Source: Candidatus Saccharimonadia bacterium
GTDB taxonomy: Bacteria; Patescibacteriota; Saccharimonadia; UBA4664
Length of the DNA: 26,738 nucleotides
Assembly (NCBI GenBank): GCA_036266515.1
Contig: DATAMV010000111.1
Span: forward strand, 1-26,738
Direction of reading: 5' to 3'
Under the pieces are notes generated by a model. It worked only from the letters and a program-made list of their open reading frames with translations, was not told where the DNA came from and made no database searches. Of the stretch, positions 4,653-16,464 are shown piece after piece. Position numbers and translations under genes: made by a program. The stretch's first letter is position 1. Each line of letters opens with the position of its first letter.

Positions 4653-5417
4653 ATGACTATTCCAATCACTGCTATCTCAATGTCCACCGGCGCCTTAGTG
4701 TTTTTCTTGGCCTGGTGGTACGTCGGCTACCGGGGCCACCAGGCGGGCCGGGTGATTTCCCGGCCGATTCAGATGTTCCGGCAGTTTTTCTTATACATGG
4801 GAATCTTTCTCAGCATCAGCGCGTCGGCGCATTTGTGGCTGATGTTTAAGCCCGAAGCGTTTCCGGTGGCTGCGGCTTGGGCGTTTACTATTGGCCATAT
4901 CTTCACGTACTTGGCCCTGATCGCGCTGGCCCGCATGACGTGTGCGCTGGTGCCGAAGCTTGCAACCCGGGAGACCGGCGTCGTCATTACCCTGGGGATT
5001 GCGGCGGCGCTCGTGACCGTGATTACGGCGAAGACCATGATCTGGGGTACGCTCCCCTACTATGACTACGCGCACCACGTCACGATCAATAACGCGGCGA
5101 GAGCGGTAGGCGTGTCCATTGGCGTGCTCACGCTTATCACCATGCTACCGGTGCTGGTGATGTTTATCGTGTTCGCAGCGCAGTCGGACGGGGCGCGGCG
5201 CCTGCGGTCACTGCTACTAGCTAGCGGCATGGTTGTACTGATCGTTTCCGGCACTATCCACAACATCGCCCGCAATGGTGAGGTCTACATCCTCGGCGAT
5301 GTCCTGTCGATCTTGGGGGTGTTTGTGCTCGGTACCGGCGTGCTTTACCGGCTGGAGCAAAGCATTGCCCCGGCGGCTCGGAAGCCGGTACGCGCGGCCT
5401 CATCCAATACCGTTTAG
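4653..5417 (+). CDS. Stand-alone 7TM membrane protein, resembling the N-terminal 7TM sensor region of histidine kinases
   Basis: Seven hydrophobic segments; basic 'RRLRSLLLASG' before TM6 parallels 'KERVRYVATG' in the 7TM region of the kinase at 21358-23535; no cytoplasmic output domain. Confidence 0.7.
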   Translation: MTIPITAISMSTGALVFFLAWWYVGYRGHQAGRVISRPIQMFRQFFLYMGIFLSISASAHLWLMFKPEAFPVAAAWAFTIGHIFTYLALIALARMTCALVPKLATRETGVVITLGIAAALVTVITAKTMIWGTLPYYDYAHHVTINNAARAVGVSIGVLTLITMLPVLVMFIVFAAQSDGARRLRSLLLASGMVVLIVSGTIHNIARNGEVYILGDVLSILGVFVLGTGVLYRLEQSIAPAARKPVRAASSNTV

Positions 5418-5604
5418 CCCCGCCGCGGGATTCTTTTGGCAGAACGACCGGACGGGTTCCTTACTTAATCAAGGCGATAGTTGCTTGTATGGGGCGGCTT
5501 ATTTTTTGCGGTTAAGCTTAGAATTCGTTACTCCAGCCAATGCCGGCCTGGTATCCGGAAGCTATGATGCATCACGTCATACCAATAACGACAAGGAGGT
5601 AGTG

Positions 5605-5631
5605 ATGGCGGATTTGGAAAAGGATCTCTAA
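5605..5631 (+). CDS. Putative 8-aa upstream ORF (MADLEKDL) or remnant of a truncated gene
   Basis: Perfect SD AAGGAGGT at 5593-5600, ATG 5605, TAA 5629-5631. Confidence 0.35.
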   Translation: MADLEKDL

Positions 5632-5656
5632 AAGCTAACTTTGTTTGATACCGAAG

Positions 5657-5688
5657 CTATTACGGGCAGGATGACCTGCTCGTAATAG
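5657..5688 (+). terminator. 14-bp stem-loop upstream of the Fet4-like gene (possible terminator/attenuator)
   Basis: CTATTACGGGCAGG-atga-CCTGCTCGTAATAG (one G.U pair), followed by TACCTTTT; the U-tract is weak. Confidence 0.5.
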
Positions 5689-5728
5689 TACCTTTTGATA
5701 ATTTTAACCGTCCTGCCAAGGAGGAGAC

Positions 5729-6115
5729 GTGGCCAAACCCCGTAAACCTGACCTATTCACCCGTTTTACAACCGCCGTTTCCGTTGCTATTGGCCGCCCG
5801 TGGGTGTTTGTGGTGGCGCTGGGAATTCTGATCCTGTGGGGCGTTAGCGGTCCTCTGCTGGGTTTTTCGGATACGTGGCAGCTCATCATTAACACCGGCA
5901 CCACGATCATTACGTTCCTGATGGTTTTCATTATTCAAAACACGCAAAACCGCGACCAGCTGGCGGCCAACATCAAACTGGTGGCAATTATGCGCAAGCT
6001 CAACATTACGGCCGAGGATTTGCTGCAAGCCGAGGATGAAAGCGACAAAAAACTCGAACAAGACAAACGCAAACTTGAGCACAACCGCAAGGCCCGCGCC
6101 AAGCGCAAACGATAA
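5729..6115 (+). CDS. Low-affinity iron permease (Fet4-like) family small membrane protein
   Basis: Signature 'FSDTWQLIINTGTTIITFLMVFIIQNTQNRD'; SD AAGGAGG before GTG. Confidence 0.88.
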   Translation: MAKPRKPDLFTRFTTAVSVAIGRPWVFVVALGILILWGVSGPLLGFSDTWQLIINTGTTIITFLMVFIIQNTQNRDQLAANIKLVAIMRKLNITAEDLLQAEDESDKKLEQDKRKLEHNRKARAKRKR

Positions 6116-6124
6116 GGAGGATTT

Positions 6125-7021
6125 ATGGCCCATGACCAACACCAAATGCAGGACCCCACCAAGCAGCATCCCAAGCCACCGTTTGATACACCGATGCAGC
6201 CCGAGCCGGGGCTGGCCAGTAAGATGCGGCCAAAACCTGATCACGGGGAAGACAGCTACCGAGGTAGCGAGCGGCTCAAGGGCCGCAAAGCCCTAGTGAC
6301 CGGCGGTGATTCCGGCATTGGGCGGGCGGTGGCGATCGCATTTGCGCGCGAGGGGGCCGATGTGGTCATAACCTACTTGCCCGACGAGCAAAGCGACGCC
6401 GATGAGGCCATGGTGTCGCTTCAGGCCACCGGCCAAAACGTCGCTGTCATACCGGGCGATCTGACGGACGAAAAATTCTGCCGGCGGCTGGTGGAGCAGG
6501 CTGTGGAGAAATTGGGCGGCCTGGATATCCTGGCAAATGTGGCCGGCAAGCAAATCTCCCAGGAAGCGATCGCCGACCTCACCACCGAGCAGTTTAAGCA
6601 AACGTTCACCGTGAACGTGTATGCCATGTTTTGGCTTTGCAAATATGCCTTACCGCACATGGCGGCGGGGGCCACCATCATTAATACATCATCGATCCAG
6701 GCTTACCAACCGTCACCCTCGCTGCTGGATTATGCGCCCACGAAGGCCGCCATCCGGGCATTCACACAGGCTCTGGCAAAGCAGGTGGCGGGCAAGGGAA
6801 TCCGGGTGAATGCCGTAGCGCCCGGGCCGGTCTGGACACCGCTCCAGCCGAGCGGGGGCCAGCCTCCGGAAAAGGTGGCCAAGTTTGGTTCGAACACGCC
6901 TCTCGGCCGGCCCGGGCAACCCGCCGAGGTGGCGCCGGCCTATGTGTTCCTCGCCTCGCAGGAATCAAGCTACATCACCGGCGAAATGCTGGGCGTCACC
7001 GGCGGACAGCATCTAAGCTAA
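6125..7021 (+). CDS. SDR-family NAD(P)-dependent oxidoreductase (YdaD/YghA-like general stress type)
   Basis: TGGDSGIG Rossmann motif, YAPTK (YxxxK), [10 protein letters not shown], Pro-rich N-terminal extension '[22 protein letters not shown]'; SD AAGGAGG. Confidence 0.93.
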
Positions 7022-8520
7022 GGCTGCGGCAGTCCATAAGGTTTGAGCTCGGCAGCCTTGTCTTGAAGCAAGTTCCTAGCCTGGTCGCGGGAGGAGTTCC
7101 ACGACTGCCAATGGGGAGCCGGTGCTTCAACCTCGCTGCGGCGGTAAAGCTCTTCTCCGAGCGTTTGTTTATCGTCGCGGGAGGTGGCCTCGAAAGCCGC
7201 GATGAGTTGCGGGAGGGCGTCGTCGGACAGCCGGGCGAGGTAGGCGCTATCAATCTTGCCGGTAGAGTGGAAGCGGTCGAGGTTGGCGCGGGCAATGAAG
7301 GCGTCGGGGCTTAGCAAATTCATAGCCACCACAAAGGCAATCACCGCAATGAAGGCCGGTAGCGCGAATATGGGCTCTGAGGCGTCTTTGAGGATTTTGT
7401 ACAGGAGGATGAGGAAGATTACGGCCAGCAGCACGGTGAACGCGTGACTGTAAAGGCGCAGGGTCGTGAAACCGTAGGCTTGTTCGTACAAGTACAAGCG
7501 CTTGAAGGCTGAGGCCATGATAAGGATCACTTGCAGCACAAGCGCGCCGGAAAGCAGCCGGAACGCGCGGGTGTGGCCGGCTTTGCCCTTGGCTACAAAT
7601 TGGTCCCCCGCCCATGCCAGCCCAAAGGTTAGGAGCGCTACGGCAATGAGCTCAAAGAAGCCTTTGCGCGCGTATTCGGCGTAGGTAAAGCCTTGGGCCG
7701 AGATATTGTGCTGCCCGCCAAACAGGTAGGCAAACTGGATCACGATGAAGGCAAAGAACAGCACATTGAGGGAGCCGAACAAGATTGAGCTTTCGATGGG
7801 GCCGAGCACGCGGGACTTGGGTGCCGGCGCGGGCGCCTCTTCGGTTTTGCCGGAGCGGATCAGGGTGTAGCTGTAGGCGCCTATGAGACCAAGCGTGGCA
7901 ATGCCGACCAGCACTACGCGCACCAGGGTCTGGGGAGTGATGCTGAAATTAAACAGGGACGTGAGGTAGCGGTGTACCACCAGGTCGGCAGACGAGAACA
8001 GCAGCACGAAGATCACGAGGAACGGTACCGTGAGCGCAATGCCTTTGAGCACCTGGACGGTGGTGGGCTGGTTCTTGGCGGCGCGCGGCAGGGCCACGAG
8101 CTCAGCCAGGGTTTTGCCGAGTGGTGGGCTGAATTTTAGCACCAGCAGCGGCACGCGCAGGTATTGGCCGACGCCGTAGCTCGTTAATTTGGGTCCAAAT
8201 GACACCGCCGCGATCAAGAGCATGAGCGCTACGGTTGCGCCGAGGTTTAGCAGCGTGAGCAGGTCGCTCGTGTGCACGGCCACCATAATGCTAAAGAATG
8301 CCAGAGGTACCAGCAGCCAGAGGACGGCCTTGGCCACCGGCTGGCGCAGGGCAGCGCGGAGTACAAAAAAGCCGCCCATAACGGCGGCCACGTACAACGG
8401 AAAAGACAGCCCAGGCATTTGGTGCCAAAACATCACATCAAACAGGATGCCCAGCATGAGTGACACGCCAGTAATGGCTAGGGCCGCGGTGAATGTTTTT
8501 GGCTGGTCTGAACGTTTCAT
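7018..8520 (-). CDS. DUF4153/DUF4173-family polytopic membrane protein (start likely ATG 8520; ORF extends to 8532)
   Basis: Motifs '[13 protein letters not shown]', '[19 protein letters not shown]', '[10 protein letters not shown]', 'YLARLSDDA'; TG-G-TACAGT lies 10 nt upstream of ATG 8520. Confidence 0.8.
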
Positions 8521-8570
8521 TGTGGCCATCACTGTACCACAATATGAAGAGTTTTTCCAGATGTGGGAGT

Positions 8571-8732
8571 CTACTTTTTCTTCGGCGCCCGGGGCACTTT
8601 CTCCCCTTCTTCGCGGGCCTTGCTCAGGCCCACGGCGATAGCCTGTTTGCGGCTTTCGAATTTACCTTCGTGTTTGTGTTCGTGAAGCATTTTTCCGACT
8701 TCCTCTTGGGCTTTGGGTCCGTATTTAGCCAT
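8571..8732 (-). CDS. Small basic protein, DUF6496-like (53 aa)
   Basis: MAKYGPKAQ...SRKQAIAVGLSKAREEGEKVP signature; SD AAGGAGGT upstream of ATG 8732 (the track's 8756 start is probably too long). Confidence 0.8.
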   Translation of the reverse strand: MAKYGPKAQEEVGKMLHEHKHEGKFESRKQAIAVGLSKAREEGEKVPRAPKKK

Positions 8733-8797
8733 GACGTGCACCTCCTTTATCACCATTTAAGGATGCGGTCGGAGCCCATGTAATTCTTTGGACGAAT

Positions 8798-9313
8798 TTA
8801 TAGAAATACGTCCACGTCGGCCTCGAGCAGAATGAGAGCCCGGCCGGTGGACTGGTAGGCAGTGGCGCCCCGGACCTCGAAGCCAAGGCCGGTGTAATAC
8901 TTTACGAGTCCATCCGGTACCGCTACCGTATCGCCGCGCAAAAGTGACCGCCGGTTTGCGCGGGCTTGCTCTGCCGCAAACCGGAGCATGCGCCGACCTA
9001 CTTGTGGCGGCGCGGAAGCCGGGTCTTTGATGAGTTTGTGGCAATATAGTGCCTTCCCGTCCCGGCCTGCATTCCCCCAGACGCTACTGTGGTCGGACAG
9101 GCAAATGGATGCAACGATCGTGCCACTCGGGCCACGCAGGACGTGACACCTCCCCGCTTCAACGGCCCGCTGGAGGTCTTTGTACGCCATATCGACAGCG
9201 TTCCACGTGCGGGTTCCGGACCGGGCCAGCGAATAGTCATTGGCCGCATCGAACAACCGTTTTAGCTCGGGAAAATCAGCAGCCTGGGCCGGCTGGATTG
9301 CTAGGCCGGCCAT
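8798..9313 (-). CDS. GNAT-family N-acetyltransferase
   Basis: Motif A-like 'QVGRRMLRFA', 'LVKYYTGLGF'; start overlaps the kinase stop region. Confidence 0.8.
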   Translation of the reverse strand: MAGLAIQPAQAADFPELKRLFDAANDYSLARSGTRTWNAVDMAYKDLQRAVEAGRCHVLRGPSGTIVASICLSDHSSVWGNAGRDGKALYCHKLIKDPASAPPQVGRRMLRFAAEQARANRRSLLRGDTVAVPDGLVKYYTGLGFEVRGATAYQSTGRALILLEADVDVFL

Positions 9314-9353
9314 AGTGCTTTGAGGCCGTTGGCGGCGGCGATATCGGCTAGAG
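9301..9353. repeat. Copy 1 of a diverged 53-bp direct repeat (3' end of the kinase gene)
   Basis: 41/53 identical to 10239-10291 by manual alignment; encodes LADIAAANGLKALWPA*. Confidence 0.85.
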
Positions 9354-10239
9354 TTTTGTCAAAGGCGGGTTTGCCCATTTTTAGCAGGTTGTCCGCGAAG
9401 CCGAGGCGCAGGGTGATGCGCTCGGTATTTTTGGGAGGGGCTTTGAGCTCGAAGAAAAGTGACAGCCGCACGCACATATAAATGAGCGCTGGGAATAACT
9501 TGGCTCCTTCTTCAGCCGTAAGGGTTCGGTGTTTGGTGTACCCCTGCAGGAATCGGCAGCACAGTTCAAAAGTGTCATCGCGGCCAAAGTAGCTCATGAT
9601 CATTGCGCCGGCAATGTCAAAAATAAACTCGCCGTAGCCGGCGTGCTCAGGGTCAATAAAACCGAGCAGTTGACCGTCTTTGGCATACAAATTATCCGGG
9701 CACACATCATGGAATACAAAGCCCTCGGGCAGGTCGTGCACTTCCTCGATGTAGGCCCGGTATTTCTCATACTTTGCCCGGGTTGGCTCGTCGAGCTGTT
9801 CCAGGAGCCCGAGACAGCGTTCGCGGCTATCCCAGGCTGGAGCAAGCTCGGCCTCGCTAATTTGCGTGATATGGAGTTTCGCGACTAATTCGCCCATTGC
9901 CTCAGCCATAGCGGGGTTAACGGCCGGCTCCGTGAGGGTCTCAAATGGAAATACAAGAATTTTTTGGCCATCGATTTCCGTAACCACCTGGCCCATATTG
10001 TTTTTGAGCGGCGCGATGGTTTGAAGACCGGCGCGCTCAATATTCGCGTAAAACTTTTCCTGGCGGGGAAGATGCTTGTACTGCAAGGGCGGAATAATTT
10101 TCATAAAGTAGGGTCCGGCCGCTGTTTTGACCGCCAGGTTCGTATTGCCGGAGCCTTTGCCCACTGGCTCGATTGAAATGATGGATGCGAGGCCCGAGTA
10201 AAAATTCCGTAGCTTTTGCGGTAGGCCGGCGAGGTCCAT
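9301..10239 (-). CDS. APH/type II homoserine kinase (ThrB)-like phosphotransferase
   Basis: GSGNTN P-loop, YFMK, catalytic loop FHDVCPDN, GFIDPE, DIA; ATG 10239 overlaps the upstream TAA (TAATG). Alternative GTG start at 10251. Confidence 0.82.
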   Translation of the reverse strand: MDLAGLPQKLRNFYSGLASIISIEPVGKGSGNTNLAVKTAAGPYFMKIIPPLQYKHLPRQEKFYANIERAGLQTIAPLKNNMGQVVTEIDGQKILVFPFETLTEPAVNPAMAEAMGELVAKLHITQISEAELAPAWDSRERCLGLLEQLDEPTRAKYEKYRAYIEEVHDLPEGFVFHDVCPDNLYAKDGQLLGFIDPEHAGYGEFIFDIAGAMIMSYFGRDDTFELCCRFLQGYTKHRTLTAEEGAKLFPALIYMCVRLSLFFELKAPPKNTERITLRLGFADNLLKMGKPAFDKTLADIAAANGLKALWPA

Positions 10240-10291
10240 TAGGCCAGCCACAGGCTCTTGAGGCCGTTGGTGGTGGCGATATCCGCCAGGG
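10239..10291. repeat. Copy 2 of the diverged 53-bp direct repeat (3' end of the amidohydrolase gene)
   Basis: Encodes LADIATTNGLKSLWLA*; 12/16 aa identical to the kinase C-terminus. Confidence 0.85.
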
Positions 10292-11231
10292 CATCAAGGT
10301 CGTAGTAGCGCTGGCCCTCCAGCAGGAAGCGCAGTTCGGTCCACATGTCGCCGTCAACGAACGGTTTGTAGAGGTCCTGGATATTATCGGTCCCGATACA
10401 CACGGTAACCCCGGCTGCCATCATCTCTTTTACTGGGGTCATGGCGTTGTGAATGGGGCCGATAACGTCATGATCCATGAGAGCAACGTGGCTATTGTCG
10501 ATCCAGCCGTCCGGACAAGCCACCACCATGACGCCGGCGTCCACCAGCTTTTTATATAATTCAAAGCGATACTCACGGGCTTGGGCCCCCACTGAAATAC
10601 AATGGACGGCTGCTACCTTGCCCTGGTAGCCGTGTTCGATGGTTTTCTTAATGAGTAGTTCGGTGTCGCGCTGGTCGGGCACATTGTATTGGTCCACGTG
10701 GACATGCAGCGGCTTGCCACCGTTTTTCTTGGCTGCTTCAAACAGAATGTCTAAGTGTTCGGCCTCGTGGCCGGCGTCTTTTTCCGGCAAGCCACCGATG
10801 ATGTCCACAAACTCAGCACCAATTTCGAACCATTTGCGGGCCTCGGGCTCTATGACGCCTTTAACCACCTGGTTTATAAATTTGATCTGAATTTTGTCGC
10901 CATAATTCTCACGTAGGCGCTTGGCGGCTTGGATGGCCTTGTCTTCAATGACAGGGTCTACGTCGATAAACGTACCGATGGCCTGAACACCCTGCTCGAT
11001 TTGCTTCTTGAGGGCGTATTCCATATTGGCGTAAATATCATCCACCGTGGCAGCTTTTTTGTACTTGTCTGGGTAGTCCCACTTCTGCTGGAGCGATCCG
11101 TTGACCAGATGGAAGTTCTCTTCATTCAAAATGAATGCGCGGTCGATGTGCGCATGGGCGTTGACCCAACCGCCTTTGGCCTTCACTTTATCTAGGACCA
11201 GTTGCTTGGGGTTGAAATCGTGGCTGTTCAT
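10239..11231 (-). CDS. Metal-dependent amidohydrolase, cytosine-deaminase (CodA/AtzC)-like
   Basis: HxH (NAHAHID), HVHVDQ, AVHCIS, GTDNIQD metal/catalytic motifs; terminal 'TTNGLKSL' helix; 330 aa. Confidence 0.85.
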   Translation of the reverse strand: MNSHDFNPKQLVLDKVKAKGGWVNAHAHIDRAFILNEENFHLVNGSLQQKWDYPDKYKKAATVDDIYANMEYALKKQIEQGVQAIGTFIDVDPVIEDKAIQAAKRLRENYGDKIQIKFINQVVKGVIEPEARKWFEIGAEFVDIIGGLPEKDAGHEAEHLDILFEAAKKNGGKPLHVHVDQYNVPDQRDTELLIKKTIEHGYQGKVAAVHCISVGAQAREYRFELYKKLVDAGVMVVACPDGWIDNSHVALMDHDVIGPIHNAMTPVKEMMAAGVTVCIGTDNIQDLYKPFVDGDMWTELRFLLEGQRYYDLDALADIATTNGLKSLWLA

Positions 11232-11232
11232 C

Positions 11233-12033
11233 TTAGGTTTTCTCCAAGGTGTTAATAAGGCAGTGGATGCCGCCGCCGGACTTATTAAACTCTCCTACTT
11301 CCACTTCGATAACTTTGCGGCCAAGTTTTTCGAGCTTTTTGCGAAAAGTGGGATTGCCGGCTTGTAATATCACTGTATCACCCGAGACGAGCGAGTTGGC
11401 GGAAAAGCCCTCGGCTTCGGTGCGGCTCATCTCATGCAGGTTGGGAATAAGCTTCTTGAGCAGGCCCTGAGAATTTTCGCTAAAAGCCGGCGGGTAGTAA
11501 AAGGCAGTATCGGCGTCGAGCGGCAGAAAGCAGGTGTCGAGGTGGTAAAACAGCGGGTCAACGAGACGCACCGGCACCACGTCGATGCCGAGGTTGTCGG
11601 CCAGCTCTTCGCATGAAGCGACATTGGCGCGAAAGCCCGTGCCAACGATGAGCATCTTGCCAACAAAAAGGGCGTCGCCGCCCTCAAAGTTGAAGATCTT
11701 GGTGAGTTCGCGCGGTTCAAAACCATGCTCGCGGAACCAGGCCCGGTAGTAGCGCGTTTCGGGTTTGCGTTCTGGGTAGCGGAAGTTGGCCATGAGCACG
11801 GTACCACCTTCGACAATTCCTTGGTCGGTGGCGAACACCATGTCTGGGACGTCGGGCTTTTGCTCGATGATCTCGACCTTAACCCCCTGGCTCTCGAGGG
11901 CCGCCACCAGGCCCTCCCATTGCTGCATGGCAAGGGCCTGATCTACGGCGTGGGGCTTCATGTGGGGGTTAATGATGTACTCGACGTCGAAATACGTTGG
12001 CCGGCACATCAGGACCCGCTTGACGCGCTGCAC
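11233..12033 (-). CDS. Pentein/amidinotransferase-superfamily hydrolase (DDAH / ArgZ N-domain-like)
   Basis: LMCRPTYFDVEYIINPHM, PDMVFATD, FEGGDA, FYHLDTC (catalytic His), GGGIHC (catalytic Cys). Confidence 0.9.
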   Translation of the reverse strand: MQRVKRVLMCRPTYFDVEYIINPHMKPHAVDQALAMQQWEGLVAALESQGVKVEIIEQKPDVPDMVFATDQGIVEGGTVLMANFRYPERKPETRYYRAWFREHGFEPRELTKIFNFEGGDALFVGKMLIVGTGFRANVASCEELADNLGIDVVPVRLVDPLFYHLDTCFLPLDADTAFYYPPAFSENSQGLLKKLIPNLHEMSRTEAEGFSANSLVSGDTVILQAGNPTFRKKLEKLGRKVIEVEVGEFNKSGGGIHCLINTLEKT

Positions 12034-12039
12034 TGGTGG

Positions 12040-13680
12040 TTAGACCTTGGCCTTTACGAGTTTGGCGACCACTTCCTGGGCAACCGCCAGGCTGGTGATA
12101 AGCGGAGTGTCGGTGGCTACGGCCTTTTCGCGGATGACTTGACCGTCGGTCTTTTCTTTCTCAACAGTTTCTTCGCGCTCGGTTTTGGTCGGGATGTTGA
12201 CGATGATGTCGAAGCGCTTGGCGTCGAGCATGTCCGAGAGGTTCGGCTTAAGCTCTGGTGTGGAGATCTTGTTGACCAGGATGGCTTCGATGCCATTGGA
12301 GAGCAGGAACTTGTGGGTCTTGTACGTGGCGTAGAGCTGGTAGCCCATGGCAGCCAGGTGCTTGACCTGGGGCAGGAACTTGAGCTTCATGTCGCGGCCA
12401 CCGATAGCGAGCAGGGCGGTGCGCTGGCGGCGCTGGGCCATGCGCATCTGGGCGGTGTAGTGTTCGATGAAGCCGGCCGAGGCGTTCTGGTTGAAGTTGT
12501 CGTTGCGGGTATCCATGAAGGTAGCCAGCTTCTCGTTGAAGATGGTGTTTGGTGTTTCGACCGCGACGGCTTCGATGTGGCCCTTGTAGAGCTTGAGGGT
12601 GACGGTGCCGGTGATTTTCTCGTTGGCTTTTTCGATGTAGGCGTAGAGGTCAGCCATGAGCGGCTCGAACCAGAGCGCGCCGTAGCAGAGGTAGGCCCAT
12701 TTTTCATCCACGATGGATTTGAACTCGTTTTCGAGCCGAGTCGAGGTGTAGCGCTCGAGAGCTTTGTGGCCGGTGATGATGGTTTCGGCGGCCGGGGCTT
12801 CATAGAGGCCGCGGACCTTGAGGCCGATCACGCGGTCTTCGAGCAGGTGAACGATACCCACGGCGTGCTTGGCGGCGCGCTCGTTGAGCTGCTCGATCAT
12901 GGCGACTAGGCCCATCTCCTTGCCGTCGACGGCCACGGGCAGGCCTTTTTCGAATTCAAGCGTGATGTATTCGGGCTTGTCGAGTGCCTCCTCGGGAGTG
13001 CGGCAGACTTGCAGGATTTTCTCGAGCGGCGGAATGAGGGCGGGATTTTCAATTTCGCCGCCTTCGCCGGTCACGCCCCACATATTGTCGTCGTAGGAGT
13101 AGGGCTTGTCTTTGGTTTGCTTCACTGGGATACCGTGAGCCAGGGCGTATTCAATCTGCTCGTCGCGGCCCATAGACCATTCGCGGACCGGAGCGATGAT
13201 TTTGATGTCGGGGTTGAGGGCGAGGGCTGAGCCTTCCATGCGGATCTGGTCGTTGCCCTTACCCGTGGCACCGTGAGCAATGGCGTCGGCGCCTTCTTGC
13301 GCCGCAATCTTGACGGCCCACTTGGCGAGCAGCGGACGGCCGAGGGGCGTCGAGAGGTAGTAGCGGCCCTGGTACATGCCGTTGGCCTTGATGCTCTTGG
13401 CCAGGTATTCGTTGGCAAATTCTTCTTTGGCGTCAACGACGATGGCCTTGACCGCGCCGAGCTTGAGGGCCTTTTCGCGGATGGCCTCAAGGTCGTCGGT
13501 TTGCTGGCCGATGTCGATGGTGAGGGCGATGACCTCGGCTTTGTAAACTTCCTGAATCCACTTCACCATTGTGGAGGTGTCGAGGCCCCCGGAGTAAAGC
13601 AAGACGACTTTTTTGACTTCGCCTTTCTTACCTTCGTAACTGGCGACTTTGACGTACTCGCTCTTGTGTTCCATGCCCAT
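12040..13680 (-). CDS. argG: Argininosuccinate synthase fused to a C-terminal MGS-like (CarB allosteric-type) domain
   Basis: LYSGGLDTS, HGATGKGNDQIR, YSYDDNMWG, EDRVIGLK.RGLYEAP; residues ~421-546 read ALLAI..D.K...ATYKT...LVNK...IIVNIP...DGQVIRE.A (MGS-like). SD GGAGGT 8 nt upstream. Confidence 0.93.
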   Translation of the reverse strand: MGMEHKSEYVKVASYEGKKGEVKKVVLLYSGGLDTSTMVKWIQEVYKAEVIALTIDIGQQTDDLEAIREKALKLGAVKAIVVDAKEEFANEYLAKSIKANGMYQGRYYLSTPLGRPLLAKWAVKIAAQEGADAIAHGATGKGNDQIRMEGSALALNPDIKIIAPVREWSMGRDEQIEYALAHGIPVKQTKDKPYSYDDNMWGVTGEGGEIENPALIPPLEKILQVCRTPEEALDKPEYITLEFEKGLPVAVDGKEMGLVAMIEQLNERAAKHAVGIVHLLEDRVIGLKVRGLYEAPAAETIITGHKALERYTSTRLENEFKSIVDEKWAYLCYGALWFEPLMADLYAYIEKANEKITGTVTLKLYKGHIEAVAVETPNTIFNEKLATFMDTRNDNFNQNASAGFIEHYTAQMRMAQRRQRTALLAIGGRDMKLKFLPQVKHLAAMGYQLYATYKTHKFLLSNGIEAILVNKISTPELKPNLSDMLDAKRFDIIVNIPTKTEREETVEKEKTDGQVIREKAVATDTPLITSLAVAQEVVAKLVKAKV

Positions 13681-13724
13681 GGGGGTCTACCTCCGTTCAT
13701 TATTCGGACACATTATCGCCAGCT

Positions 13725-13751
13725 ATTATAGCACAAAATTGGAAAAATCAA
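13725..13751 (-). promoter_or_regulatory. Extended -10 promoter of the argG operon (TGTG-C-TATAAT; TTGATT at short spacing)
   Basis: Minus strand: TTGATT-15 nt-TATAAT with TGTG immediately upstream; -10 at 13725-13730. Confidence 0.65.
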
Positions 13752-13802
13752 GTGTTTTTTTCGAAAAATGGCCTAATTTAGAGCATTTTGAGGTGCTTTT
13801 TG

Positions 13803-14951
13803 CTATTTTTTCTTAAACCTGGTGCGGCTACCATGATGGCTGCCCTGAATGTTCTTTGGCCGAGGCATAAGGCTCTTAACGTCAATGGCCAGCTCGGGAT
13901 TCCAAATAACGGCGGTGGCGGCCTGCACCATGTCGGCGCCGGCGTCACGGTAGGCTTGGTAGTCAGCTGGATTCATGACGCCGCCGATGCCAATGATGGC
14001 AAAACGAAGGCCCAGCCGCTCGCGCAACTCGGCGAGGCGGCGGGTCATGTCGAGGCCGGCCCACTTAATGCCGGCGCCGCATAGGCCGGTACGGTCGCGG
14101 CCGGGCAGGGCCGGCTCGCCGTCCGGTGTCACGACCGAGCCCGGGATGGTGTTGACCGCGGCGACGGCGGCAACGAGCGGGGCGACGGCCCGCATGATGG
14201 TTTCGAGTAGCTCCTGCTGATCCGGTGCGTAGTAGCCAAGCTTTATGATCAGCGGGGTTTTGCCGGCGGCTGTCCGGCAGCGGCGCACGATGTCCGTGAC
14301 GGCGCCGGGCGAGTAGCACAGCACGCCCTCGCCGCTCACGTTGGGGCACGAAAGGTTGATCTCGATTGCCGGGGCGCCGGCCTGGACCGCGAGCTTTACG
14401 GCTTCGGCGAAGTCATTGTAATAATCCTCAGTGGAGAAGCCGGGCTGAATGGTGCCTTGTACCGACATGATTACCATTTGGCCGCGCTTCACGGCGGCAA
14501 GGCACCGGGCGTAGTCCGGCATCCAAAACTCGGGCCCGCGCGACGGCACGGCAAATGAGTTGGTAATAGTGAGCCGGCTGAGGTCGGGGTCGTCTCCCAC
14601 GGCGTGCGCCACTAGCGGCTTTTTGGCTTGATCGAGGGTAAGGTCACCGTCCACATCCACGGCCAATACATTAGGAAACGGGTTAACTTCAAAGGCGACG
14701 GTGCGCTGGGTTTTGTAGGTAACGAGGTCAAAGCCTTTATTAAGAGCGGCGATCACGTATTTGGCGTTGAGTAGCGGTCCGGCGGCTATGCCAAACGGCG
14801 AAAACATCGGCCGGCCAAAGAAATTAAACTGCGGCCGCCCTTTGTCGTGGTATGGAATAGGCAGGGCGAATTCGCCGAACGGGCCATGGTCGAAATTCTC
14901 AGCATAGGTTTTGGCGGGATCGTAGATGGGTTGTTGGCCTGAACTGAGCAT
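13803..14951 (-). CDS. pyrD: Dihydroorotate dehydrogenase-like FMN oxidoreductase (class 1-type, divergent)
   Basis: GIAAGP, TYKT, ITNS, EINLSCPN (catalytic Cys), IIKL, VNT, GLCG, IIGIGGV, VQAATA; next to pyrF/pyrE. Could instead be a dihydropyrimidine dehydrogenase-like enzyme. Confidence 0.72.
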   Translation of the reverse strand: MLSSGQQPIYDPAKTYAENFDHGPFGEFALPIPYHDKGRPQFNFFGRPMFSPFGIAAGPLLNAKYVIAALNKGFDLVTYKTQRTVAFEVNPFPNVLAVDVDGDLTLDQAKKPLVAHAVGDDPDLSRLTITNSFAVPSRGPEFWMPDYARCLAAVKRGQMVIMSVQGTIQPGFSTEDYYNDFAEAVKLAVQAGAPAIEINLSCPNVSGEGVLCYSPGAVTDIVRRCRTAAGKTPLIIKLGYYAPDQQELLETIMRAVAPLVAAVAAVNTIPGSVVTPDGEPALPGRDRTGLCGAGIKWAGLDMTRRLAELRERLGLRFAIIGIGGVMNPADYQAYRDAGADMVQAATAVIWNPELAIDVKSLMPRPKNIQGSHHGSRTRFKKK

Positions 14952-14995
14952 GGTAGTTTATAGGATAGCATAAGCTGGGAAAGGCACCTGTAATC

Positions 14996-15817
14996 GTGAA
15001 CTTTGCGGCCAAATTAGCCAAGTCCGTTGAGCGCTCAAACTCACTGCTGTGTGTGGGGCTTGACCCCGGCGTGGCTAAGCTCCCGAAGAGCATGCCCGAC
15101 CAATTTGAATTTAATAAAGCCATTATTGAAGCCACGCATGATCTGGCGAGTTCATACAAACCGAATGCGGCGTTTTATGAGGCGCGGGGTGCTGACGGCA
15201 TCGAGGCACTCAAGCGCACATGCGACTACCTGCGCGAAACCTACCCCGAAATCCCGATCGTATTTGATGCCAAGCGCGGCGACATCGGCAACACGAATGC
15301 CGGCTACGCTGAGTACGTGTTTGAATACCTGGGCGCCGATGCCGTGACCGTGGCGCCCTACATGGGCAGCGAGTCGCTTGAGAAATTCTTGGAATGGGAA
15401 GGTAAAGGCATTATTGTACTCTGCCGCACCTCAAATCTCGGGGCCGGTGAGTTTCAGGACCTCATGGTCGGCGGCGAGCCGTTGTATATGCATGTGGCCA
15501 AACGCGTGAGTTCGGCTTGGAACAGCCGCGGCAACTGCGCGCTGGTGGTGGGTGCAACCTATCCGAAGGAGCTGGCCGAGGTGCGCGCGGTGGTCGGCGA
15601 CGCCATGCCGATTCTGATCCCGGGCATCGGCGCACAAGGCGGCGAGGTGGCAGCCAGCGTGGAAGCCGGCCTAGGCGGCGGCCACGCACCAATTATGATT
15701 GCTACCTCTCGGGCCATTATTTTTGCATCCGACGGCGAGGATTTTGCCGAGGCCGCCCGGACTGAGGCCCAGAAATTGCGCGATGAAATTAACCGCTACC
15801 GGAAGGAGACCGCATGA
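14996..15817 (+). CDS. pyrF: Orotidine-5'-phosphate decarboxylase
   Basis: LCVGLDP, YKPNAAFYE, DAKRGDIGNT (DxKxxDIxxT), LCRTSN, VVGAT, LIPGIGAQGG, SRAII. Confidence 0.95.
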   Translation: MNFAAKLAKSVERSNSLLCVGLDPGVAKLPKSMPDQFEFNKAIIEATHDLASSYKPNAAFYEARGADGIEALKRTCDYLRETYPEIPIVFDAKRGDIGNTNAGYAEYVFEYLGADAVTVAPYMGSESLEKFLEWEGKGIIVLCRTSNLGAGEFQDLMVGGEPLYMHVAKRVSSAWNSRGNCALVVGATYPKELAEVRAVVGDAMPILIPGIGAQGGEVAASVEAGLGGGHAPIMIATSRAIIFASDGEDFAEAARTEAQKLRDEINRYRKETA

Positions 15818-16464
15818 CTACGGGTGATGAAATAAAAGAGCTCCTCGTAAAGAGTGGCGGCTGGCTTGATAATGACCATTTTGTGGGCACCAACGGCAAC
15901 CACATGAGCACCTATATTAATAAGGACGCACTTTACCCGCACACCGAATACGCCTCCAGGCTCGGTGAAGCCATGGCCGCGGCCATGAAGGACTGGGACC
16001 CGGAGGTGGTGGTAAGCCCGGCGCTTGGTGGGATCGTGTTGACGCAATGGTCGGCCTACCACGCCACCCAGATGCTGGGACGTGAGGTGCTGGCGGTGTA
16101 TGCCGAGAAGGTGGAGGGGCCGGAAAAGAAGTTTGCCTTCACGCGCGGGTACGACAAGCTGGTGGCCGGCAAGCGCGCCGTGGTAGTGGAAGACAACCTC
16201 ACCACCGGCGTCTCGGTGCGCAAGGTGGTGGAGCTGGTGCGTGAAACCGGCGGCGAGGTGGTGGGCGTGGTGGCCATGCTCAACCGCGGCGGTGTGAGCC
16301 GTGAAGACGTGGGCAACCCGCCGCACTTTGAGGCCATTGTGCAGGCTGACCTTAAATCGTGGCCGGCCGCCGAATGCGAACTGTGCGCTAAGGGCGTGCC
16401 AGTTAACACCAAAATCGGCAAAGGCAAAAAGTTCCTGGAAGAACAAGCGGCCAAGCAGCAATGA
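15814..16464 (+). CDS. pyrE: Orotate phosphoribosyltransferase
   Basis: PRPP-binding VVVEDNLTTGVSV, SPALGGI, YAEK; ATGA overlap with pyrF. Confidence 0.9.
   Translation: MTTGDEIKELLVKSGGWLDNDHFVGTNGNHMSTYINKDALYPHTEYASRLGEAMAAAMKDWDPEVVVSPALGGIVLTQWSAYHATQMLGREVLAVYAEKVEGPEKKFAFTRGYDKLVAGKRAVVVEDNLTTGVSVRKVVELVRETGGEVVGVVAMLNRGGVSREDVGNPPHFEAIVQADLKSWPAAECELCAKGVPVNTKIGKGKKFLEEQAAKQQ

What the first reader, a model, noticed from the sequence alone, without database searches (positions are those of the whole stretch)
8798..16464. Candidate carbamoyl-phosphate-independent entry into pyrimidine synthesis via arginine/argininosuccinate
Seen: a translationally coupled operon (gaps of 6 and 1 nt, then overlaps) of argG-MGS, pentein hydrolase, CodA-like amidohydrolase, kinase and GNAT, next to pyrD-like/pyrF/pyrE. 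The window has no argH, carAB, pyrB, pyrC or OTC. Established: ArgG joins citrulline and Asp; penteins cleave guanidino C-N bonds; argininosuccinate can cyclise to 5- and 6-membered anhydrides; CodA/AtzC-like enzymes hydrolyse exocyclic C-N bonds on amidine heterocycles; PyrD/E/F need dihydroorotate. Inference: Arg -> citrulline (pentein) -> argininosuccinate (ArgG) -> ornithine plus carbamoyl-aspartate or dihydroorotate. The last step could be amidohydrolase action on the six-membered anhydride (an N2-substituted dihydro-isocytosine carboxylate) or pentein cleavage. This would replace CPS, ATCase and possibly DHOase. I do not know of this route being described.
Basis: partly seen in the sequence, partly recalled or inferred. 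Interest (0 to 1): 0.9.

Follow-up and report, generated by a model that had tools for sequence, protein, structure and literature searches.

The report
Arginine-fed bypass into pyrimidine synthesis
In this tiny-genome bacterium, three arginine-type enzymes sit where relatives keep their dihydroorotase gene (pyrC), so they probably build the pyrimidine ring from arginine or citrulline plus aspartate by a route I found described nowhere; no enzyme has been assayed.

Summary
In detail: the genes, the 6-nt and 1-nt gaps, the overlaps and the GNAT are all real.

The conserved core is three genes: ArgG fused to a CPS-type MGS domain, an ArgZ-like pentein, and a CodA/AtzC-fold amidohydrolase (AH, PRK06886). 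The kinase is a lineage-specific insertion. The GNAT is a recurrent accessory.

- **Saccharimonadia with AH:** eight near-complete genomes have PyrD but no carB, pyrB, pyrC or canonical arginine deiminase (ADI). One has OTC and ArgH.
- **Controls:** seven PyrD-positive relatives without AH all have pyrB and pyrC.
- **This genome:** the module sits beside pyrD where sister species keep pyrC. The genes that flank pyrB in one sister abut here, so pyrB is deleted at that locus.
- **Other phyla:** 23 of 24 further AH-carrying genomes lack pyrB, including cultured Weeksellaceae. Haemophilus influenzae HI_0842 is an AH homologue, and citrulline is a known pyrimidine precursor there.

Best reading: arginine → citrulline → argininosuccinate → dihydroorotate plus ornithine. 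The last step is inferred.

"Carbamoyl-phosphate-independent" is not right for this genome, which keeps carAB-argF and an ArgH-like gene.

This scan has flagged the same module on other DNA several times. I found no paper describing the route.

The parts
12040..13680 (-). ArgG-MGS fusion (546 aa). Type-1 argininosuccinate synthase domain at about 12424-13620; CPS-allosteric-type MGS-like domain at about 12094-12375.
   Evidence: PF00764 and PF20979, PRK00509 498.6 bits, PF02142 50.3 bits, and the C-terminus matches CarB positions 927-1049; about 50% identical to T. thermophilus ArgG 1J1Z, with the SGGLDTS and HGATGKGNDQxR motifs intact; the nearest solved sequence to the MGS part is the CPS1 allosteric domain 2yvq. 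It is the only ArgG in the genome.
11233..12033 (-). ArgZ-like pentein (266 aa). Cys258/His164/Asp166 catalytic residues; Asp70 (codon 11824-11826) where ArgZ has Asn71.
   Evidence: best solved relatives are the ArgZ (6juy/6jv0, 177 bits) and AgrE N-domains, with FATD aligned to ArgZ FTAN. D70 in 24/24, C258 in 23/24 and H164 in 22/24 module penteins. It is the only pentein in the genome.
10239..11231 (-). Minimal CodA/AtzC-fold amidohydrolase (AH, 330 aa), PRK06886 family. Metal ligands H26, H28, H178, D282; H210; Gln181 (10689-10691) at the position of the catalytic Glu of cytosine deaminase.
   Evidence: NF005365 436 bits; nearest structures are 5-methylcytosine deaminase, AtzC and CodA (TM by query 0.82-0.84, 22-25% identity), and no dihydroorotase appears in the top 50. 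AF2 pLDDT 93.5. H26, H28, H178, D180, Q181, H210 and D282 are invariant. H. influenzae HI_0842 is 48% identical.
9301..10251 (-). APH / homoserine-kinase-like phosphotransferase (316 aa), a lineage-specific insertion between AH and the GNAT.
   Evidence: PF01636 72.8 bits, and homoserine kinase models far below cut-off; no homologue in any of the 80 related loci; its 3' end (9302-9351) repeats the AH 3' end (10240-10289) at 80% identity.
8798..9313 (-). GNAT-fold acetyltransferase (171 aa), a recurrent accessory gene directly downstream of AH.
   Evidence: profile against PDB hits GNATs (2oh1, 3.4e-11). AF2 pLDDT 91 with a GNAT fold; homologues lie immediately after AH in 8 of 9 other loci with one, and about 480 nt downstream in the ninth (L120).
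13803..14951 (-). Divergent PyrD-like dihydroorotate dehydrogenase, native to the lineage. It lies immediately upstream of the module on the same strand.
   Evidence: PF01180 70 bits, the only DHODH in the genome; 62-65% identical in same-genus genomes. It lies next to pyrC, and in G014 and G025 near pyrB too.
14996..15817 (+). pyrF (OMP decarboxylase, subfamily 2).
   Evidence: TIGR02127 239 bits (cut-off 110.6).
15814..16464 (+). pyrE-like orotate phosphoribosyltransferase.
   Evidence: TIGR01367 109.5 bits (below the 150 cut-off); 78-83% identical to the gene after pyrF in three sister genomes (G004, G001, G005), but only 33% in G002.
9302..9351 (.). Direct repeat copy 1. Copy 2 is at 10240-10289 (80% identical over 50 nt). 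This is the duplicated AH 3' end and coupling junction.

Best explanation
The three-gene core (ArgG-MGS, pentein, AH) is a non-orthologous replacement of the upper pyrimidine pathway.

Proposed flow:
1. The pentein hydrolyses arginine to citrulline plus ammonia (inferred).
2. ArgG-MGS joins citrulline and aspartate, using ATP, to give argininosuccinate. This rests on family membership. Its CPS-type allosteric domain probably puts the step under nucleotide control (inferred).
3. AH, a mononuclear CodA/AtzC/creatinine-deaminase-type hydrolase, expels ornithine from the guanidino carbon of argininosuccinate. It most likely acts on or through the six-membered cyclic anhydride, giving dihydroorotate, or possibly carbamoyl-aspartate (inferred; the weakest step).
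4. The native PyrD, PyrE and PyrF finish UMP.

In this genome the module was acquired horizontally. It replaced pyrC beside pyrD, and pyrB was deleted at the locus where a sister species carries it. Because carAB-argF are retained, ornithine can also be recycled to citrulline with carbamoyl phosphate. The route here is therefore independent of ATCase and DHOase, and can be fed by either arginine or carbamoyl phosphate. In most other carriers it is truly carbamoyl-phosphate-independent.

The GNAT may deal with the ornithine by-product (speculative). The kinase is a later insertion of unknown role.
For: **Saccharimonadia profile.** AH occurs in 9 of 401 Saccharimonadia genomes. The 8 others are 98-100% complete.

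| Gene | 8 AH-positive genomes | 7 PyrD-positive controls without AH |
|---|---|---|
| PyrD | 8/8 | 7/7 |
| pyrB | 0/8 | 7/7 |
| pyrC | 0/8 | 7/7 |
| carB | 0/8 | 4/7 |
| canonical ADI | 0/8 | not found |
| OTC-like | 1/8 | not found in any of the 7 |
| ArgH | 1/8 | not found |

**Own genome.**
- No pyrB or pyrC was found by HMM or by tblastn with sister proteins.
- The window is syntenic with same-genus genomes, and the module occupies the pyrC side of pyrD.
- The genes that flank pyrB in G004 abut on contig C100.

**Horizontal origin.** The module proteins are 78-81% (ArgG-MGS) and up to 79% (AH) identical to those of other families. Neighbouring PyrD, PyrF and PurD are only 52-58% identical. 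No relative in 40 genomes of the order has AH or ArgG.

**Other phyla.**
- 23 of 24 further AH-positive genomes (Weeksellaceae, Saprospiraceae, Melainabacteria, other Patescibacteria) lack pyrB.
- 5 of 5 tested lack pyrC.
- The two cultured Weeksellaceae tested (Moheibacter lacus and strain MIP2422) have PyrD, PyrF and ArgG.

**ArgG product.** ArgG-MGS is the sole ArgG in G000 and G332, which also have ArgH and OTC. Its product should therefore be true argininosuccinate.

**AH and its partners.**
- The AH fold is that of enzymes that hydrolyse exocyclic C-N bonds on amidine or guanidine rings.
- AH is also linked to penteins in Moheibacter.
- H. influenzae carries the AH homologue HI_0842. It is reported to lack de novo pyrimidine synthesis and to use citrulline as a pyrimidine precursor (PMC3739930).
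Against: - No enzyme of the module has been assayed.
- AH is not a dihydroorotase-type binuclear enzyme, so ring closure has no obvious catalyst.
- The catalytic Glu of deaminases is Gln in AH.
- G363 has AH and PyrD but no ArgG or PyrF was found.
- G421 has AH, ArgG-MGS and the pentein and also a real pyrB.
- G000 is only 83% complete, and it keeps carAB, argF and an ArgH-like gene. ArgG-MGS there could serve arginine synthesis alone.
- The carriers are related to one another, so the counts are not independent.
- Epibionts might import dihydroorotate or orotate.
Confidence: 0.6

Rival explanations
1. Arginine/ornithine-ammonia-cycle reading. The pentein is an ArgZ-like arginine hydrolase that works with OTC, ArgG and ArgH to cycle or store nitrogen or to make arginine. 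AH is an unrelated deaminase, and the pyr neighbourhood is incidental.
For: G000 has carAB-argF, ArgG-MGS and an ArgH-like gene. The pentein's best solved relative is ArgZ. G332 has the same set.
Against: Seven of 8 other carriers have neither OTC nor ArgH, so argininosuccinate would be a dead end without AH. The ArgZ-defining Asn is Asp in 24/24 sequences. This reading does not explain the loss of pyrB and pyrC, the ArgG-AH coupling or the MGS fusion.
Confidence: 0.08
2. Same pathway, different division of labour. The pentein cleaves argininosuccinate to ornithine plus carbamoyl-aspartate (amidinotransferase-like leaving group) and AH closes the ring as a dihydroorotase substitute. Citrulline is imported or made elsewhere.
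For: Penteins can release ornithine, as amidinotransferases and the second ArgZ step do (established knowledge). AH belongs to the same superfamily as dihydroorotase. AH sits next to penteins in two phyla.
Against: Eight of 31 ArgG-linked loci have ArgG-MGS and AH with no adjacent pentein, and the 24 further genomes tested from these loci almost all lack pyrB. AH has the mononuclear CodA/AtzC fold, and no dihydroorotase appears in the top 50 structural matches. No citrulline source other than the pentein was found in 7 of 8 three-gene genomes.
Confidence: 0.12
3. Oxidation-first variant. The cyclic argininosuccinate anhydride is oxidised by the PyrD-like enzyme. AH then hydrolyses the aromatic N2-ornithyl-isocytosine-6-carboxylate to orotate plus ornithine, an AtzC-like reaction.
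For: Characterised members of the CodA/AtzC group act on aromatic heterocycles. PyrD lies next to the module in most loci.
Against: The same PyrD orthologue (62-65% identical) serves the canonical pathway in sister genomes with pyrB and pyrC. Weeksellaceae carriers have ordinary PyrD.
Confidence: 0.07
4. Salvage reading. The module has another role, such as detoxification or making another guanidino compound. PyrD, PyrE and PyrF work on dihydroorotate or orotate taken from the host, and the anticorrelation with pyrB and pyrC is a by-product of genome reduction.
For: Saccharimonadia are epibionts with many auxotrophies. G363 shows AH without ArgG.
Against: Free-living cultured Bacteroidota of 2.6-3.3 Mb show the same gap together with AH. 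The module replaced pyrC in place. ArgG carries a CPS-type regulatory domain.
Confidence: 0.1

Closest known systems
Canonical upper de novo pyrimidine pathway (CarAB, PyrB aspartate transcarbamoylase, PyrC dihydroorotase)
   Same: Same presumed end product (dihydroorotate) feeding PyrD, PyrE and PyrF. Same genomic position beside pyrD. The first enzyme carries the same kind of allosteric MGS-like domain as CarB.
   Different: There is no transcarbamoylase and no dihydroorotase. The carbamoyl unit would be carried on citrulline and argininosuccinate rather than on carbamoyl phosphate. The route costs ATP to AMP plus PPi and releases ornithine.
Type-1 argininosuccinate synthase (T. thermophilus 1J1Z; TIGR00032/PRK00509)
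   Same: About 50% identity, scores far above the curated cut-offs, and the ATP and substrate motifs are intact.
   Different: It has a C-terminal CPS-type MGS-like domain. In most carriers it occurs without ArgH or OTC.
ArgZ/AgrE arginine dihydrolase N-domain (Synechocystis Sll1336, PDB 6juy; Anabaena Alr4995, 6lrf)
   Same: Best solved relative (177 bits), with shared substrate-binding motifs and the Cys/His/Asp catalytic residues.
   Different: Asp replaces Asn71, as I recall for ADI and DDAH. There is no ornithine cyclodeaminase domain, and the score is below the NCBIfam cut-offs. It is likely to stop at citrulline.
Cytosine deaminase CodA, 5-methylcytosine deaminase and AtzC N-isopropylammelide isopropylaminohydrolase (PDB 1k6w, 4r7w, 2qt3)
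   Same: TIM-barrel fold with TM 0.78-0.84, plus the HxH, His and Asp metal ligands and the second His. AtzC expels an alkylamine from an amidine carbon, which is the kind of step proposed here.
   Different: Only 22-25% identical. It lacks the beta-sandwich domain (330 aa against 400-430). Gln replaces the catalytic Glu. It forms a distinct family (PRK06886) of unknown function.
Haemophilus influenzae HI_0842 (P44058) and the citrulline requirement of its defined media
   Same: 48% identical AH homologue. The organism is reported to lack de novo pyrimidine synthesis and to use citrulline as a pyrimidine precursor (PMC3739930).
   Different: No paper I found links HI_0842 to this. It is annotated only by bioinformatics as AtzC-like (PMC3877243). 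I did not examine its genomic context.

Membership tests
Argininosuccinate synthase type 1 (TIGR00032 / PRK00509) | Whole-protein score above the curated cut-off | tested here: met
   448 bits (cut-off 268.2) and 498.6 bits (cut-off 334).
Argininosuccinate synthase type 1 (TIGR00032 / PRK00509) | ATP pyrophosphatase motif SGGLDTS and substrate motif HGATGKGNDQxR | tested here: met
   Both are visible in the alignment to 1J1Z. The assignment of individual binding residues is from memory.
Argininosuccinate synthase type 1 (TIGR00032 / PRK00509) | Catalyses citrulline + aspartate + ATP to argininosuccinate | not testable with these tools
   Indirect only: it is the sole ArgG in G000 and G332, which also carry ArgH and OTC.
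CPS large-subunit allosteric (MGS-like) domain | MGS-like domain whose nearest relatives are the CPS C-terminal domains | tested here: met
   PF02142 50.3 bits; TIGR01369 positions 927-1049; nearest solved sequence is human CPS1 2yvq, E=3e-4.
CPS large-subunit allosteric (MGS-like) domain | Binds a nucleotide or other effector and regulates the fused enzyme | not testable with these tools
   An A-T-x-x-T motif is present. Ligand unknown.
ArgZ-type arginine dihydrolase | Curated score; Asn71 determinant; Cys/His/Asp catalytic residues | tested here: not met
   207.5 bits against a cut-off of 450. Asp in place of Asn in 24/24. The catalytic residues themselves are conserved.
Arginine deiminase ArcA (TIGR01078) | Curated score and about 400-aa architecture | tested here: not met
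   45 bits against a cut-off of 489, and 266 aa. It may still work like a deiminase.
DDAH (Mtb type, NF045659) | Curated score | tested here: not met
   261.4 bits against a cut-off of 300.
PRK06886 / NF005365 amidohydrolase family (function unknown) | Curated score over full length | tested here: met
   436.4 bits against a cut-off of 340, profile positions 7-324 of 327.
Cytosine deaminase / AtzC subgroup of the amidohydrolase superfamily | Fold and mononuclear metal ligands (HxH, His, Asp) | tested here: met
   TM 0.78-0.84. H26, H28, H178 and D282 are invariant.
Cytosine deaminase / AtzC subgroup of the amidohydrolase superfamily | Catalytic Glu after the third His; beta-sandwich domain; curated scores | tested here: not met
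   Gln181 is invariant. The protein is 330 aa and aligns only to the barrel. It scores 95 bits against a cut-off of 403.
Dihydroorotase (PyrC) | Match to the PyrC model and dihydroorotase-type fold | tested here: not met
   TIGR00857 finds nothing in the genome, AH included. No dihydroorotase appears among the top 50 structural matches.
GNAT acetyltransferase (171-aa protein) | GNAT sequence profile and fold | tested here: met
   Profile hits to 2oh1 and 3h4q. AF2 model matches GNAT structures at TM 0.73-0.80. Pfam alone was sub-threshold.
Cyanobacterial ornithine-ammonia cycle | ArgZ + OTC + ArgG + ArgH together | tested here: inconclusive
   All four types are present in G000 and G332. Seven of 8 other module carriers lack OTC and ArgH.

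The most novel reading that the evidence does not exclude
A second, chemically distinct way to start de novo pyrimidine synthesis. The carbamoyl unit is taken from arginine or citrulline, joined to aspartate as argininosuccinate by a nucleotide-regulated ArgG, and released as dihydroorotate plus ornithine by a new amidohydrolase family. No carbamoyl phosphate, ATCase or DHOase is needed. The route would be spread across Patescibacteria, Bacteroidota, Melainabacteria and Pasteurellaceae, with the pentein making it arginine-fed.
Probability: 0.5. Interest if true: 0.92.

Novelty: categorically new. Interest (0 to 1): 0.85.

Why it matters
The CPS, ATCase and DHOase entry into pyrimidine synthesis is treated as universal, and genomes without it are scored as pyrimidine auxotrophs. 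If this module supplies dihydroorotate, several things follow:
- Many CPR bacteria, Weeksellaceae, Melainabacteria and probably Haemophilus are prototrophs fed by arginine or citrulline.
- Metabolic reconstructions of symbionts would need revising.
- An old physiological puzzle, citrulline acting as a pyrimidine precursor in H. influenzae, would get an enzyme.
- A function would be assigned to the PRK06886 family.

The case in this window is unusually clean. Sister species still carry pyrB and pyrC, and here both are gone from their places while the module sits in the place of pyrC.

Tried and rejected
- **Misbinned or chimeric contig:** rejected. Both flanks are syntenic with four same-genus genomes.
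- **pyrB missing only through an assembly gap:** rejected for the G004-type locus, because the flanking genes abut on C100. The G001/G005-type locus ends at a contig edge and is uninformative.
- **AH as a dihydroorotase:** rejected by fold and by the PyrC model.
- **Kinase as a pathway member:** rejected. It is absent from 80 loci and flanked by a duplicated junction.
- **Ornithine-ammonia cycle as the general explanation:** rejected, since 7 of 8 carriers lack OTC and ArgH.
- **Technical failures:** The search for related loci with the diverse alignment A1 failed because it had no conserved stretch, so the closer set A2 was used. The ArgZ and AgrE structure papers (PMC7029115, PMC7186175) are not held, so the role of Asn71 is from memory.
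- **Literature:** searches for the route, for PRK06886 and for argininosuccinate anhydride found nothing relevant.

Full report
**What is in the window**

ORF listing and family scans confirm a minus-strand run of tightly packed genes:
- PyrD-like, 13803-14951, then a 122-nt gap.
- ArgG fused to an MGS-like domain, 12040-13680, then a 6-nt gap.
- A pentein, 11233-12033, then a 1-nt gap.
- An amidohydrolase of the PRK06886 family (AH), 10239-11231, with a 13-nt overlap onto the next gene.
- An APH / homoserine-kinase-like kinase, 9301-10251, with a 13-nt overlap onto the next gene.
- A 171-aa protein, 8798-9313.

pyrF and a pyrE-like gene diverge from pyrD on the plus strand. The 171-aa protein has no Pfam hit above threshold. 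A profile of it and nine homologues hits GNAT structures, and its AF2 model has a GNAT fold.

**The organism and the rest of its genome**

The window is the largest contig of a 1.15-Mb, 83%-complete Saccharimonadia MAG. Elsewhere the genome carries carA-carB-argF on contig C74 and a short ArgH-like gene (276.6 bits against a cut-off of 279.5).

The window's ArgG-MGS is the only ArgG, the window's PyrD-like gene is the only DHODH, and the module's pentein is the only pentein. No pyrB or pyrC was found, either by HMM or by tblastn with the sister species' own PyrB and PyrC.

**Is the absence real?**

The contig is not misbinned. GT4-GT2-Wzx on one side, and PyrD-PyrF-PyrE, PurD, a polysaccharide deacetylase and the receiver-kinase pair on the other, are syntenic with four same-genus genomes.

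In those genomes the gene beside pyrD is pyrC. Here that place holds the module.

In G004, pyrB lies between a 431-aa and a 281-aa gene. In this genome their homologues (88% and 72% identical) abut, with overlapping ends, on contig C100. pyrB has therefore been deleted at that locus, not merely left unassembled.

All six same-genus genomes have pyrB, and none has AH or ArgG. The module proteins are 78-81% (ArgG-MGS) and up to 79% (AH) identical to those of other Saccharimonadia families, whereas the neighbouring PyrD, PyrF and PurD are only 52-58% identical. This points to horizontal acquisition.

**Phyletic pattern**

AH occurs in 9 of 401 Saccharimonadia genomes. The table compares the eight other carriers (98-100% complete, four families, seven genera) with seven PyrD-positive relatives that lack AH.

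| Gene | 8 AH carriers | 7 controls without AH |
|---|---|---|
| PyrD | 8/8 | 7/7 |
| pyrB | 0/8 | 7/7 |
| pyrC | 0/8 | 7/7 |
| carB | 0/8 | 4/7 |
| canonical ADI | 0/8 | not found |
| OTC-like | 1/8 | not found in any of the 7 |
| true ArgH | 1/8 | not found |

In six of the eight carriers the module lies within 3 kb of pyrD.

Among 80 species-level AH loci:
- 31 have ArgG-MGS adjacent.
- 23 of those have the pentein, always between ArgG-MGS and AH when the three are adjacent. In L101 the ArgG-MGS/pentein pair lies 4-6 kb from AH on the opposite strand.
- 20 of the 31 have pyrD or pyrF within 8 kb.

Outside the Patescibacteria, AH stands alone in Weeksellaceae, Saprospiraceae and other Bacteroidota, and in Melainabacteria.
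- Of 24 such further genomes, only one has a real pyrB.
- Five of five tested lack pyrC.
- Moheibacter lacus and a complete Weeksellaceae chromosome have ordinary PyrD, PyrF and ArgG.

These carriers are related to one another, so the counts are not independent events. They do span at least three phyla and include free-living, cultured organisms.

**The proteins**

- **ArgG-MGS.** The ArgG part is canonical: about 50% identical to 1J1Z, with its motifs intact. In G000 and G332 it is the only ArgG next to an ArgH, so its product should be argininosuccinate. The C-terminal domain is most like the allosteric domain of CPS, which in CarB binds UMP, IMP and ornithine (established knowledge). That suggests nucleotide control of a committed step.
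- **Pentein.** It is closest to the ArgZ/AgrE arginine dihydrolase domain. It has Asp where ArgZ has Asn71, in 24 of 24 module penteins, and the catalytic Cys, His and Asp are conserved. From memory, ADI and DDAH carry Asp there, which would fit a citrulline-forming hydrolase.
- **Pentein and citrulline supply.** Genomes with the three-gene form have no other visible citrulline source. Of five two-gene genomes examined, two have a canonical ADI. G414, and also the two-gene genome G420, have an OTC-like gene.
- **AH.** This is a high-confidence TIM barrel (pLDDT 93.5). Its nearest structures are 5-methylcytosine deaminase, AtzC and CodA. No dihydroorotase appears in the top 50. The metal ligands are intact but Gln replaces the catalytic Glu, and the beta-sandwich domain is missing.
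- **AH in Haemophilus.** The best Swiss-Prot match is H. influenzae HI_0842, 48% identical.

**Mechanism**

The most economical reading has four steps.
1. Arginine to citrulline, by the pentein (inferred).
2. Citrulline plus aspartate to argininosuccinate, by ArgG-MGS (from family membership).
3. Argininosuccinate to dihydroorotate plus ornithine, by AH (inferred).
4. Dihydroorotate to UMP, by PyrD, PyrE and PyrF.

Argininosuccinate is known to cyclise to a six-membered acylguanidine anhydride (established chemistry). Hydrolytic removal of its exocyclic ornithine nitrogen parallels creatinine deaminase and AtzC chemistry, and would give dihydroorotate directly. Who catalyses ring closure is unknown. 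An acyclic route through carbamoyl-aspartate would need a dihydroorotase that these genomes lack.

In G000, OTC and CPS allow ornithine to be recycled. There the pathway can act as a catalytic ornithine cycle that moves a carbamoyl group from carbamoyl phosphate to aspartate. "Carbamoyl-phosphate-independent" therefore holds for most carriers but not necessarily for this genome.

**Accessory genes**

GNAT homologues follow AH directly in eight other loci and lie about 480 nt downstream in a ninth. In G000 the kinase sits between AH and the GNAT, and its 3' end repeats the AH 3' end (50 nt, 80% identical). The kinase is therefore a later insertion that copied the coupling junction. No kinase homologue occurs in the 80 loci.

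**Exceptions**

- G363 has AH (366 bits) between tsf and frr, and a canonical PyrD, but no ArgG or PyrF was found.
- G421 has AH, ArgG-MGS, the pentein and also pyrB.

**Literature and earlier notes**

I found no paper describing this route.
- Sinha et al. 2013 (PMC3739930) state that H. influenzae cannot make pyrimidines de novo and that its MIV medium contains the pyrimidine precursor citrulline.
- HI0842 has only a bioinformatic AtzC-like label (PMC3877243).

This scan has noted the two-gene and three-gene forms on other DNA before. One such claim was later priced at modest odds for the bold reading. I used those notes as leads only.

**Verdict**

The replacement of ATCase and DHOase is strongly supported by genomics. 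The chemistry of the AH step and the role of the pentein are inferred. The claim of carbamoyl-phosphate independence needs qualifying for this genome.

Noticed in passing
window 9302-9351 and 10240-10289: A 50-nt direct repeat (80% identical) places the AH 3' end and its coupling junction at the end of the kinase gene as well. The kinase was inserted between AH and the GNAT.
   Followed up: yes
G000 contig C74 (L002:477-5795) and C131 (L004:1465-2670): carA-carB-argF form one cluster, and a short (401 aa) ArgH-like gene scores just under its cut-off. The same-genus genomes tested (G001, G002, G004, G005) show no OTC or ArgH, so these look acquired along with the module. G332 has a similar short ArgH and an OTC-like gene.
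   Followed up: partly
L038 (G363:C1:628000-642000), AH at 7950-9005: An AH homologue (48% identical) sits between tsf and frr, where pyrH usually lies. No ArgG or PyrF was found in this 99%-complete genome. The adjacent 234-aa ORF has no Pfam hit.
   Followed up: partly
L093 (Moheibacter lacus) 7992-10990: In this cultured Weeksellaceae species, AH is followed by a divergent pentein and a CtlX-type citrulline utilization hydrolase (457 bits). This is a second, independent link between AH and penteins.
   Followed up: partly
L030 (G002:C3) 5362-6459 and 7256-8353: Two PyrD-like paralogues (63% and 45% identical to the window's) sit about 800 nt apart, separated by a 225-aa ORF, in a sister genome that also has pyrB and pyrC.
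   Followed up: no
G005, G014, G025: These relatives have pyrB and pyrC but no carB was found, so their carbamoyl phosphate source is unclear.
   Followed up: no
window 14952-14995: Only 44 nt separate the divergent pyrD and pyrF starts. The consensus promoter scan found none in that gap; its only minus-strand hit (15149-15122) lies inside pyrF.
   Followed up: no
L035 7210-8503; L040 5204-5791; L041 4647-5237: In other carriers the gene after AH is either the GNAT followed by a TauE/SafE-type exporter, or a small membrane protein. These may handle a by-product of the pathway.
   Followed up: no
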